Virus record (IMG/VR): IMGVR_UViG_3300006065_000002
Strand: one strand, 5' to 3'
DNA: 64,000 nucleotides
Source: a virus
Shown: positions 44,093 to 44,827 of the stretch, piece by piece
How the letters are laid out: each line of letters begins with the position of its first letter
How positions within the stretch are numbered: position 1 is the first letter of the stretch
Made by a program: the position numbers and the translations under genes
The notes under the pieces: model-generated
The model's input: the letters and a program-made list of their open reading frames with translations, nothing else
The model's database searches: none
What the model was told of the DNA's origin: nothing

Positions 44093-44210
44093 AGAGAGAA
44101 AAGGCGACTGTGTATTTTTTTTCGATGGGAATCGAACCCACAACATTCCGTTTTTGATACGGATGCTCTACCAAATGAGCTACGAAGTAACACAATCTAT
44201 AACTACTCTT
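44093..44210 (-). ncRNA. Y-RNA-like element Y2 (conserved stem extends the acceptor of a D-AC-T tRNA body)
   Basis: AGAGTAG...GATTGTGTTACTTCG-[TAGCTCATTTGGTAGAGC, anticodon arm, GTGGGTTCGATTCCCAT]-CGAA...ACACAGTC...TTCTCT. Confidence 0.75.
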
Positions 44211-44220
44211 TATAATTTTA

Positions 44221-44435
44221 ATCAGAGAAAACGAAAAAGGAATTTAATTTACTTTTACGGTTGCCGTTTATCGGTGGTTTCCCTTACCGACACTGGGCAG
44301 GTTAGTTGAATCTACTTGAGATTCGTAGGTTTCGTTTCCAATTCCTATTACCACCATTCACTAGTCGTTCGCACGAACAATCACTACCTTAGAACCATTA
44401 TTGATTTCGAAGAAATCCTTAATCTCACTTCTGAT
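44221..44435 (-). ncRNA. Y-RNA-like element Y3 (large non-tRNA insert)
   Basis: ATCAGAAG...AAGGATTTCTTCG ... TTCCTT...TTCTCTGAT termini. Confidence 0.55.
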
Positions 44436-44483
44436 TATATTTTCAATATCTTAAAGAACTTGTGTTTTAAACTTTTGTTGTTA

Positions 44484-44491
44484 CAAAGATA
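44484..44491 (-). promoter_or_regulatory. Bacteroidota-type TAnnTTTG -7 promoter element (also at 30864, 33384, 39552, 53189, 61356)
   Basis: CAAAGATA/CAAATATA on + upstream of minus-strand units. Confidence 0.7.
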
Positions 44492-44544
44492 AATAAAAAT
44501 TTTGTAATTACCAAATAATTTAAAAACTTTTTTAAAAAAAAATG

Positions 44545-44677
44545 TGGGGGGTGAAGGACTCGAACCTCCAAATCTTAATTCCCAAAAAATTATTGTTTTA
44601 CCAAGAAGTAACTAAATCGATAACTACTGTTGCCAGAGAATGGACAACTTAGTGTTTTTCAAATTTGCTAACCCCCC
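44545..44677 (-). ncRNA. Y-RNA-like element Y4 (conserved stem inserted in the D-loop of a tRNA with native ends)
   Basis: GGGGGGT/ACCCCCC-A acceptor, T-arm; internal ACTAAGTTG...TTCTCTG-GCAA-CAGTAG...CGATTTAGTTACTTC. Confidence 0.7.
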
Positions 44678-44687
44678 AAATATTTAA

Positions 44688-44827
44688 ATCAGAGAACAAC
44701 GGAATGAGTGAACTGTTTGTGACAATTTTGAAAGAATTGCGTCTTATCCACTTGACTAACTTTCCGGTTACGGAAGGTATCGGATTCGAACCGATGATAC
44801 GAAGTAACTCAATCACTTACTACTGAT
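44688..44827 (-). ncRNA. Y-RNA-like element Y5 (permuted tRNA: T-arm, closed acceptor, D-arm, UUC anticodon arm)
   Basis: ATCAGTAG...GAGTTACTTCG-ATCGGTTCGAATCCGAT-TTCCG/CGGAA-GTCAAGTGGATAAGAC-CAATT CTTTCAA AATTG...TTCTCTGAT. Confidence 0.78.

What the first reader, a model, noticed from the sequence alone, without database searches (positions are those of the whole stretch)
44093..44827. One stem grafted onto tRNA at three different positions (permutation series)
Seen: in Y2 the stem extends the acceptor of a D-AC-T body. In Y5 the order is T-arm, loop-closed acceptor, D-arm, intact UUC anticodon arm, so the stem occupies the variable-loop position. In Y4 a tRNA with native 7-bp acceptor ends carries the stem, reversed and capped by a GCAA tetraloop, inside its D-loop. 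Known: YrlA is a permuted tRNA mimic. Inference: these are independent tRNA-Y fusions presenting different tRNA faces, possibly as decoys for anticodon nucleases or tethers to tRNA-binding enzymes. Y4 could even receive CCA and be charged.
Basis: partly seen in the sequence, partly recalled or inferred. Interest (0 to 1): 0.82.

Follow-up and report, generated by a model that had tools for sequence, protein, structure and literature searches.

The report
Phage Y RNAs built on tRNAs
Next to its Ro60 gene, this large phage encodes a row of small RNAs that join one conserved Ro60-type stem to tRNA bodies at different attachment points, which widens the known kinds of tRNA-mimicking Y RNA and gives a way to ask what those mimics bind.

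Summary
On the minus strand, upstream of a Ro60 (TROVE) gene, six tandem elements share one bulged stem with the motif GUUACUUCG.

- Y2 (44090-44212) is a D-anticodon-T tRNA body whose acceptor is replaced by the stem.
- Y5 (44686-44829) runs T arm, loop-closed acceptor, D arm, intact anticodon arm. The stem therefore leaves from the variable-arm position.
- Y4 (44545-44677) is a tRNA-like RNA with a free 7-bp acceptor. The stem is reversed, capped by GCAA, and sits in the D region.

Each topology recurs in related phage contigs with strong covariation: 21, 22 and 11 distinct sequences, 92-97% of cells paired. The stem covaries at all 16 pairs over 110 sequences. In two complete phage genomes every hit lies within about 5 kb of Ro60. 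The same stem flanks YrlA-like RNAs beside Ro60 genes in four bacterial phyla.

In the Y5 class the anticodon triplet is hypervariable inside an invariant loop frame.

Best reading: these are Y RNAs whose tRNA modules act as tethers or decoys for tRNA-binding proteins. Ro60 binding and function are inferred, not shown. This is a new variant of a known kind (YrlA and Yrn1).

The parts
42084..43640 (-). Ro60 (Rsr/TROVE) gene, 518 aa
   Evidence: Pfam TROVE E=1.5e-17. PHROG 850 'RNA-binding protein' matches over the full length. Residues 18-507 match the solved Thermus phage phiLo Ro60, 9L5Y/9KOP, E=6.6e-23.
43941..43978 (-). Hairpin followed by a run of nine U, a likely terminator after Y1
   Evidence: Read from the sequence. 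The consensus scan did not list it because its loop is longer than 8 nt.
43994..44082 (-). Y1: shared stem with a short module that is not a tRNA
   Evidence: R2 scores 45.5 bits, E=3.7e-9. Homologues at L001:3816, L002:3830 and L003:3837.
44090..44212 (-). Y2: shared stem running straight into a D-anticodon-T tRNA body (anticodon CAA); tRNA body at 44117-44189
   Evidence: Rfam tRNA 53.4 bits. ARAGORN calls tRNA-Leu(CAA). R2 38 bits. In 11 homologues the D, anticodon and T arms are 100%, 91% and 100% paired, and the acceptor-like helix has 3 conserved pairs.
44219..44437 (-). Y3: shared stem (motif variant GAUUUCUUCG) around a module of about 165 nt that is not a tRNA
   Evidence: Stem found by a pairing filter, 9 of 9 outer pairs, and by folding. 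The module has no homologue in any fetched locus and is not detected by R2.
44484..44515 (-). Bacteroidota-type promoter-like site (TTTG ... TATCTTTG) between Y4 and Y3
   Evidence: Pattern match. The consensus is from my own knowledge of Bacteroides promoters. The overall count is not significantly above shuffles.
44545..44677 (-). Y4: tRNA-like RNA with a free 7-bp acceptor, an anticodon-like arm and a T arm. The shared stem is reversed as a GCAA-capped hairpin (44611-44653) in the D region. A run of U follows the 3' end.
   Evidence: R1 124.8 bits. In 22 class members 91.9% of cells pair, the acceptor pairs at 100%, and 23 of 33 pairs show compensatory change.
44686..44829 (-). Y5: shared stem, T arm, loop-closed acceptor, D arm, anticodon arm (loop CUUUCAA), back to the stem
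   Evidence: R2 142.6 bits. In 21 class members 97.3% of cells pair, 32 of 37 pairs show compensatory change, and the anticodon arm pairs at 100%.
44840..44915 (-). Y6: shared stem with a short module
   Evidence: R2 27.2 bits, E=3e-5. Homologues at L002:3265 and L003:2436.
44948..45035 (-). tRNA-like element with an enlarged anticodon region, between GOLLD and Y6 (context only)
   Evidence: Rfam tRNA 30.7 bits.
45045..45451 (-). GOLLD RNA directly upstream of the array (context only)
   Evidence: Rfam RF02032 175.9 bits. L001-L003 have the same order, with GOLLD at 277-288 bits.

Best explanation
The elements are phage Y RNAs, small RNAs that work with the Ro60 ring protein encoded just downstream.

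All share one handle. It is a stem of about 25 bp with a one-base bulge (CAG-U-AG against CUCUG) and an internal loop carrying the invariant GUUACUUCG opposite an A/C-rich strand. By position, and by homology to the stems of bacterial YrlA-like RNAs, this handle is the Ro60-binding module (inferred).

The other end of each RNA is a tRNA or a tRNA mimic. Every topology keeps the tRNA elbow, meaning the T loop plus the GG of the D loop. They differ in which parts are left free:
- Y2 exposes the anticodon and blocks the acceptor.
- Y5 exposes the anticodon, closes the acceptor, and sends the handle out where class II tRNAs carry their long variable arm.
- Y4 leaves both the acceptor end and the anticodon arm free and carries the handle in the D region.

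The most likely function is that of a tRNA-shaped adaptor or decoy. The tRNA module is bound by proteins that recognise tRNAs, such as processing or modification enzymes, synthetases or anticodon nucleases. That either tethers them to Ro60 and its partner nucleases or soaks them up.

Shown here: the structures, their conservation, and their linkage to Ro60. Inferred: Ro60 binding and the identity of the partners.
For: Ro60 identity.

Shared stem: across 110 distinct sequences from 54 loci the three stem helices are 97%, 88% and 97% paired. All 16 pairs show compensatory changes, and 0 of 500 shuffles reach the observed covariation score. G-U pairs are common, which fits an RNA on the Ro60 strand.

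Linkage to Ro60:
- In two complete phage genomes (340 kb in total) all 10 model hits lie within about 5 kb of Ro60, on its strand.
- All 3 complete viral records that carry elements encode Ro60.
- The same stem flanks YrlA-like RNAs within 2.5 kb of TROVE genes in Bradyrhizobium, Chryseobacterium, an Acidobacteriaceae MAG and two Verrucomicrobiota MAGs. These were found by a pattern that did not use Ro60.

Topologies: covariation for the Y5 class, the Y4 class and the Y2 class.

Mimicry rather than decoding:
- Where it could be checked in the two complete genomes, stem-embedded anticodons duplicate canonical tRNAs of the same phage: Gln UUG and Cys GCA in one, Pro UGG in the other. A fourth, His AUG, has only a GUG counterpart.
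- In the Y5 class U33 and A37 are invariant and C32/A38 nearly so. The triplet differs in 59% of pairwise comparisons among close relatives, against 0% for the other four loop positions and 27% for other unpaired sites. There are 11 different triplets in 21 RNAs.
- Several Y4-class 'anticodon' loops lack U33 or a purine at position 37.
- Cutting the hairpin out of Y4-class RNAs would not leave a normal D arm.

Literature: Y RNAs tether Ro60 to effectors, and YrlA is a tRNA mimic whose conserved elbow is expected to bind a tRNA-binding protein (PMC4201824; bioRxiv 10.1101/312249). A phage Ro60 binds phage Y-like RNAs and host PNPase (PMC12135203).
Against: - There is no experimental or expression evidence. 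No RNA run was available, so transcripts, ends and Ro60 binding are unproven.
- The published Ro60-contact motifs (GNCGAAN0-1G, GGUCCGA) are not literally present. Only a YCG(A) core is shared.
- Five fragmentary viral records that carry elements have no TROVE gene in the part held. These records are 11-62% complete.
- Fully nested members have canonical 7-bp acceptors and would be cut by RNase P like any pre-tRNA. At least that class may simply yield tRNAs.
- The covariation alignments for the Y4 and Y5 classes were fitted to the models, which favours the structure. The slid-partner controls and the MAFFT-only alignments argue this is not the cause.
Confidence: 0.62

Rival explanations
1. Ro60-assisted tRNA biogenesis. 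The stem is a handle that loads Ro60, and an exonuclease threaded through its ring, onto special phage pre-tRNAs. RNase P cutting, 3' trimming and CCA addition then turn the nested, Y4-type and perhaps Y5-type RNAs into working tRNAs, intact or nicked.
For: - Fully nested members are canonical tRNAs whose first base is the G of the motif.
- Y4-class RNAs have perfect 7-bp acceptors and a discriminator base.
- Several Y5-class acceptor loops read G-CCA directly after the 3' acceptor strand.
- M. smegmatis YrlA is cut by RNase P and receives CCA in vivo (PMC4201824).
- Y5-class anticodon loops are canonical, CU-NNN-AA.
Against: - Embedded anticodons duplicate canonical tRNAs in the same complete genomes.
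- Y2-class acceptors keep only 3 pairs.
- Many Y4-class anticodon loops are not canonical, and their D arm is missing or displaced.
- Short members of the family (Y1, Y6, and 40 of 110 hits) contain no tRNA at all.
Confidence: 0.22
2. Generic processing stalks. The leader-trailer stems are cutting sites for RNase III or another host nuclease that punctuate a polycistronic tRNA transcript. They have no special relation to Ro60.
For: Long imperfect stems that flank stable RNAs are classic RNase III substrates (my own knowledge of rRNA operons). The elements lie within tRNA arrays.
Against: - Most tRNAs of the same arrays lack the stem.
- The stem carries invariant sequence motifs across phages whose Ro60 is 34% identical, and across four bacterial phyla. 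There it always sits beside a TROVE gene.
- In Y4-class RNAs the stem lies inside the tRNA body, so cutting it would destroy the RNA.
Confidence: 0.06
3. DNA-level feature. The inverted repeats are recombination or mobility sites that shuffle tRNA gene pieces, like the integron-like cassette sites noted further along this window. The 'permutations' would then be rearrangement debris.
For: The series of topologies looks like the product of recombination between repeated stems.
Against: - Pairing includes many G-U pairs, which work only on the Ro60-sense strand.
- Each topology is conserved with compensatory changes in all tRNA arms. That means selection on the folded RNA, not debris.
- No recombinase is conserved beside the elements.
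Confidence: 0.04

Closest known systems
YrlA (Rfam RF02553; S. Typhimurium, M. smegmatis and many other bacteria and phages)
   Same: - It is encoded beside Ro60 on the same strand.
- It has a terminal stem plus a tRNA-like module in the order T arm, closed acceptor, D arm, with the elbow conserved.
- Relatives of this window do contain such forms. They hit RF02553 weakly, at 36-38 bits, E about 1e-5.
   Different: - No RF02553 match anywhere in the window's Y region at E<=10.
- Y5 has an added, fully covarying anticodon arm. Its stem therefore leaves from the variable-arm position, not the anticodon-stem position.
- The stem motif is GUUACUUCG, not GNCGAAN0-1G.
- The Rfam model aligns only to the tRNA-like core, not to this stem.
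D. radiodurans Yrn1
   Same: As modelled by Chen et al. 2014 (PMC4201824), its T and D arms are oriented the other way relative to the 5' end than in YrlA, and the stem-loop between them sits at the anticodon-arm position. I read that as the Ro60 stem lying at the acceptor position, as in Y2.
   Different: - Yrn1 has an incomplete D arm and a 6-nt 'anticodon' loop.
- Y2 and its 11 homologues are good enough tRNAs to pass the Rfam tRNA threshold.
- Some relatives hold a complete tRNA with a 7-bp acceptor.
Thermus phage phiLo Ro60 with Yrl1 and Yrl2 (PMC12135203)
   Same: A phage-encoded Ro60 with Y-like RNAs just upstream. The protein is homologous over its full length.
   Different: The phiLo RNAs are described as two stem-loop Y-like RNAs with a CGAA motif. 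The passages I read mention no tRNA modules and no series of topologies.
Circularly permuted tRNA genes (Cyanidioschyzon merolae) and two-piece tmRNA
   Same: The 3' part (T arm and 3' acceptor strand) is encoded before the 5' part (5' acceptor strand, D arm, anticodon arm), as in Y5. This comparison rests on my own knowledge.
   Different: Those are matured into normal tRNA or tmRNA. Here the termini form a conserved Ro60-type stem. No bulge-helix-bulge splice motif was looked for. The anticodons are redundant with normal tRNAs.
Class II tRNAs with a long variable arm (for example bacterial tRNA-Tyr)
   Same: An extra helix leaves the tRNA core just before the T arm, as the stem does in Y5. 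Sphingobacteriales tRNA-Tyr even contains the 9-mer GUUACUUCG at the junction of the anticodon stem and the variable arm.
   Different: In tRNA-Tyr the arm is a short closed hairpin and the acceptor is open. In Y5 the arm is the open 25-bp stem and the acceptor is closed. The shared 9-mer may be coincidence.

Membership tests
Y RNA (Ro60-associated noncoding RNA, general) | Encoded next to, and on the same strand as, a Ro60/TROVE gene | tested here: met
   In the window the elements lie 350-1300 nt upstream of the Ro60 ORF on the minus strand. In two complete genomes every hit lies within about 5 kb of Ro60. Bacterial relatives lie within 2.5 kb of a TROVE gene.
Y RNA (Ro60-associated noncoding RNA, general) | Conserved bulged helix formed by distant strands, which serves as the Ro60-binding module | tested here: met
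   The helix with a one-base bulge is 97% paired. All 8 outer pairs covary across 110 sequences.
Y RNA (Ro60-associated noncoding RNA, general) | Published 5'-strand contact motif (GGUCCGA in animals, GNCGAAN0-1G in YrlA) | tested here: not met
   The invariant motif here is GUUACUUCG followed mostly by U or A. Only the YCG(A) core is shared.
Y RNA (Ro60-associated noncoding RNA, general) | Physically bound by Ro60 | not testable with these tools
   This needs co-immunoprecipitation or a gel-shift assay.
YrlA (Rfam RF02553) | Reaches the family's gathering score (69 bits) | tested here: not met
   No match at E<=10 in window 43600-45700. YrlA-like relatives score 36-38 bits.
YrlA (Rfam RF02553) | T arm, loop-closed acceptor, D arm, with the Ro60 stem continuing from the anticodon-stem position | tested here: not met
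   Y5 has the T, acceptor, D order but adds a 5-bp anticodon arm with a 7-nt loop that is 100% paired in 21 sequences. That moves the stem to the variable-arm position. Y2 and Y4 have other orders.
YrlA (Rfam RF02553) | Conserved tRNA elbow (T loop and D-loop GG) | tested here: met
   GGUUCRAnUCC and a D-region GG are present in Y2, Y4 and Y5 and in the members of each class.
tRNA (Rfam RF00005) | Cloverleaf that reaches the gathering score (29 bits) and has a 7-bp acceptor with free ends | tested here: inconclusive
   Y2 scores 53.4 bits, but its acceptor is the motif itself with 3 conserved pairs and no free ends. Y4 gives only a partial 17.4-bit match, yet it has a perfect free acceptor. 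Y5 is not matched because it is permuted.
Ro60 / Rsr protein | TROVE domain and full-length similarity to a solved Ro60 | tested here: met
   Pfam TROVE E=1.5e-17. Match to phiLo Ro60 9L5Y over residues 18-507, E=6.6e-23.

The most novel reading that the evidence does not exclude
The Y5 class, and perhaps the Y2 and Y4 classes, are anticodon-programmable decoys. Each phage sets the three anticodon bases, inside an otherwise frozen loop, to match the host tRNA that a defence nuclease or toxin attacks. The Ro60 handle protects the decoy, or hands the captured enzyme or the damaged RNA to Ro60-linked nucleases or repair enzymes. That would be an RNA-based phage counter-defence and would give the long-sought partner of YrlA-type tRNA mimics.
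Probability: 0.2. Interest if true: 0.85.

Novelty: new variant of a known kind. Interest (0 to 1): 0.7.

Why it matters
Bacterial Y RNAs with a tRNA-like domain have been known since 2014. What that domain binds is still open.

This phage lineage offers a natural set of experiments:
- The same Ro60-type handle is joined to tRNA bodies in at least five ways.
- All of them keep the tRNA elbow.
- One class has a frozen anticodon loop around a fast-changing triplet.

This points to the elbow and the anticodon as the parts that are read. It gives defined RNAs of 123-144 nt for binding, RNase P, CCA-addition and charging assays. It also links phage Ro60 to the contest over tRNAs between phages and hosts.

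The reversed, tetraloop-capped form indicates that the free ends of the stem are not structurally conserved, which narrows the candidate Ro60-binding region. The GUUACUUCG-type stem is missing from Rfam and could be added as a family.

Tried and rejected
- Expression: no RNA holder is listed for the region. Only DNA runs from a hot-spring metagenome hold it.
- No whole genome is held for the window.
- Automatic boundary finding with duplex energies was too noisy in this A/T-rich DNA. A pairing filter replaced it.
- The viral pattern scans returned many chance hits in coding DNA, which had to be filtered out.
It therefore says nothing about whether Y4- or Y5-type RNAs are absent from bacteria.
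- The 443-aa, 139-aa and 64-aa ORFs around Ro60 match no Pfam or PHROG family and are not conserved beside Ro60 elsewhere.
- The Y3 module has no homologue in any fetched locus.
- The sigma-70 promoter and terminator scan was uninformative.
- Two reviews (PMC10870794, PMC6047535) and the supplements of Chen 2014 are not held.
- Intron-like excision of the stem was rejected for Y4. The remaining RNA would lack a normal D arm.
- Fragmentary viral records without a TROVE gene are not counted against the linkage, because they are 11-62% complete.

Full report
**Locus**

Everything lies on the minus strand. Reading 5' to 3', the order is:
- a GOLLD RNA at 45451-45045 (Rfam 175.9 bits);
- a tRNA-like element at 45035-44948;
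- six tandem elements, called Y6 to Y1 here;
- a 64-codon ORF with no family match;
- a 518-aa ORF at 43640-42084.

The 518-aa ORF is a Ro60. It has a Pfam TROVE domain (E=1.5e-17). PHROG 850 matches over the full length. It matches the solved Ro60 of Thermus phage phiLo over residues 18-507 (E=6.6e-23). The window also carries 17 tRNAs and a tmRNA, so it looks like part of a large phage.

**The observation**

The octamer GTTACTTC occurs five times on the minus strand between 44054 and 44894. About 1.7 copies are expected in the whole 64-kb window. Each copy ends the 5' strand of a stem whose 3' strand lies 60-200 nt downstream.

The three RNAs in the finding are as described:
- Y2 (44212->44090) contains a tRNA that Rfam scores at 53.4 bits, and ARAGORN calls it Leu(CAA). 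Its acceptor 5' strand is the motif UACUUCG itself, and the helix continues into the shared stem.
- Y5 (44829->44686) runs stem 5' strand, T arm, hairpin-closed acceptor, D arm, anticodon arm with loop CUUUCAA, stem 3' strand.
- Y4 (44677->44545) has GGGGGGU paired with ACCCCCC, then discriminator A and a run of U. Between UAGC and UUGGUA of its D region sits the same stem in reverse strand order, closed by GCAA.

**Related loci**

- The Ro60 protein recovered 8 viral loci.
- An alignment of Ro60 proteins recovered 80 metagenome loci with 44-79% identity.
- A motif pattern recovered further viral contigs, many of them chance hits that I filtered out.
- Where Ro60 is present in a locus, the elements lie on its strand.

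**Covariation of the three topologies**

| Class | Model or alignment | Distinct sequences | Cells paired | Pairs with compensatory change |
|---|---|---|---|---|
| Y5 | R2, hits of at least 98 bits | 21, from 21 loci | 97.3% | 32 of 37 |
| Y4 | R1 | 22, from 17 loci | 91.9% | 23 of 33 |
| Y2 | MAFFT only, not fitted to a structure | 11 | 93.9% (18 tRNA-body pairs only) | 11 of 18 |

- Y5 class: the anticodon arm is 100% paired. No shuffle of 500 reaches the observed covariation. With partners slid by one to three columns, only 31-43% of cells pair.
- Y4 class: the acceptor is 100% paired, the reversed stem 92-99%, the T arm 98%. Caps include GCAA, GAAA, GUAA, GCGA, GGAA and UUCG, as expected for a purely structural loop.
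- Y2 class: the D, anticodon and T arms are 100%, 91% and 100% paired. Only three pairs (UCG with CGA) of the acceptor-like helix are conserved.
- RNAalifold on plain MAFFT alignments independently recovered the main helices.

**The shared stem**

R2 also finds the other classes through the stem alone: 119 hits at E<1e-4 in 54 of 99 loci. Over 110 distinct sequences the three stem helices are 97%, 88% and 97% paired, and all 16 pairs show compensatory change.

The consensus has three parts:
- an outer helix of variable sequence, ending in AG-U-RG paired with CYCU around a bulged base;
- a proximal helix of variable sequence;
- an internal loop with GUUACUUCG on the 5' side and an A/C-rich strand on the 3' side.

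**More than three classes**

The relatives show further forms:
- complete tRNAs with a 7-bp acceptor nested in the stem, whose first base is the G of the motif;
- D-anticodon-T bodies with no acceptor;
- YrlA-like forms without an anticodon arm;
- reversed stems inserted between the acceptor and an intact D arm, or replacing the D arm;
- short forms with no tRNA part.

Single genomes carry several classes side by side. L096, for example, has four. The topologies are therefore old, co-existing classes, not recent accidents of this genome.

**Link to Ro60**

- In two complete phage genomes (173 kb and 167 kb) all ten model hits lie within about 5 kb of Ro60 on its strand. Nothing else in 340 kb matches.
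- All three complete viral records that carry elements encode Ro60. The five records without it are 11-62% complete.
- A pattern scan of bacterial genomes that did not use Ro60 mostly found tRNA-Tyr genes.
- Six non-tRNA hits in that scan scored at least 39 bits and have a TROVE gene within 2.5 kb. They come from Bradyrhizobium, two Chryseobacterium species, an Acidobacteriaceae MAG and two Verrucomicrobiota MAGs.
- Those six are YrlA-like RNAs flanked by the same stem and motif. One further non-tRNA hit, in a Patescibacteria MAG, has no TROVE gene in the 8 kb held.

The stem is thus a Ro60-linked module shared by bacteria and phages. Rfam's YrlA model aligns only to their tRNA-like core, at 36-38 bits against a threshold of 69. 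It finds nothing in the window's Y region.

**Mimic or working tRNA?**

- Anticodons embedded in stems repeat canonical tRNAs of the same complete genome where I could check: Gln UUG and Cys GCA in one, Pro UGG in the other. A fourth, His AUG, has only a GUG counterpart.
- In the Y5 class the loop reads CU-NNN-AA in 18 of 21 RNAs, with U33 and A37 invariant. The triplet takes 11 values.
- Among seven close relatives the triplet differs in 59% of pairwise comparisons. The figures are 0% for the four other loop positions, 27% for other unpaired sites and 28% for paired sites.
- Many Y4-class loops lack U33 or a purine at position 37. Removing the hairpin would not restore a D arm.

These points favour mimicry read at the anticodon and the elbow over a role in decoding.

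Against that, nested members look like ordinary pre-tRNAs. Several Y5-class acceptor loops read G-CCA. M. smegmatis YrlA is known to be cut by RNase P and to receive CCA (PMC4201824). Some members may therefore be processed.

**Comparison with what is known**

- Y RNAs tether Ro60 to effectors. YrlA is a circularly permuted tRNA mimic whose conserved elbow is expected to bind a tRNA-binding protein (PMC4201824; bioRxiv 10.1101/312249).
- D. radiodurans Yrn1 has its T and D arms oriented the other way than YrlA, so that, as I read the description, the stem sits at the acceptor side. It is a precedent for Y2 (PMC4201824).
- Phage Ro60 proteins with Y-like RNAs are known (PMC12135203). Jumbo-phage TROVE proteins have been linked to RNA repair with a tRNA-like partner (PMC7824862).
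- My literature searches found none of the following: Y RNAs with an intact anticodon arm and the stem at the variable-arm position; full tRNAs nested in a Y stem; a reversed, capped stem inside a tRNA-like RNA with free acceptor ends.

**Verdict**

The elements are best read as a GUUACUUCG-type subfamily of Y RNAs with modular tRNA parts. They are a new variant of a known kind. Ro60 binding, processing and partners remain to be shown.

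Noticed in passing
window 45045-45451 (-); L001:2489-2905, L002:2720-3134, L003:1913-2328: A GOLLD RNA sits directly upstream of the Y RNA array and Ro60. The order GOLLD, tRNA-like element, Y elements, Ro60 is kept in three related phage contigs. My literature search found no paper that links GOLLD with Ro60 or Y RNAs.
   Followed up: partly
window 45309-45626 (-): A 105-codon ORF matches only the C-terminal TNB zinc-finger domain of TnpB/Cas12f (E=1.4e-17). 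It overlaps the poorly aligned 5' third of the GOLLD match. A full-length TnpB lies at 34726-35952 (-). This may be a transposon remnant at the 5' end of GOLLD.
   Followed up: no
window 33636-34097 (-); for example L150:6632-7084, L147:1956-2420, L160:1949-2401: A 153-aa RNase H-like protein (Pfam PF04308, YkuK type) lies 8 kb from Ro60 in this window. In about nine related loci it sits within about 100-1300 nt downstream of Ro60. It is a candidate partner nuclease for this phage Ro60.
   Followed up: partly
window 44219-44437 (-): Y3 carries the shared stem around a module of about 165 nt that is not a tRNA. The module has no Rfam match and no homologue in any fetched locus.
   Followed up: partly
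L273:7416-7497 and many Sphingobacteriales and Planctomycetota genomes: Bacterial tRNA-Tyr(GUA) contains the exact 9-mer GUUACUUCG at the junction of its anticodon stem and long variable arm, just before the T arm. This is the same place where the stem leaves Y5. It could be coincidence or a hint of origin from a class II tRNA.
   Followed up: partly
window 44440-44465 and 44915-44937 (-); L003:715-735, 1095-1120, 2490-2512: A conserved box resembling GTTCTTTAAAATATTGAAAA lies about 10 nt upstream of several elements. A Bacteroidota-type promoter-like site (TTTG ... TATCTTTG) lies at 44484-44515 (-). Together these suggest at least two transcription units and a shared leader or processing signal.
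   Followed up: no
L003:737-871, L004:2717-2851, L032:4724-4856, L096:7265-7397: tRNAs fully nested in the stem have unusually A/U-rich acceptor stems (such as GUUUUUU or GUAUUUU). They often have anticodon UUG or UGG with G37, unlike the canonical tRNAs of the same phages.
   Followed up: no
L084:1602-1733; window 30977-31049 (-): One nested tRNA in a related phage has anticodon UCA, which reads the opal stop codon. The window itself has a CUA (amber-reading) tRNA. Stop-codon-reading tRNAs recur in this phage group.
   Followed up: no
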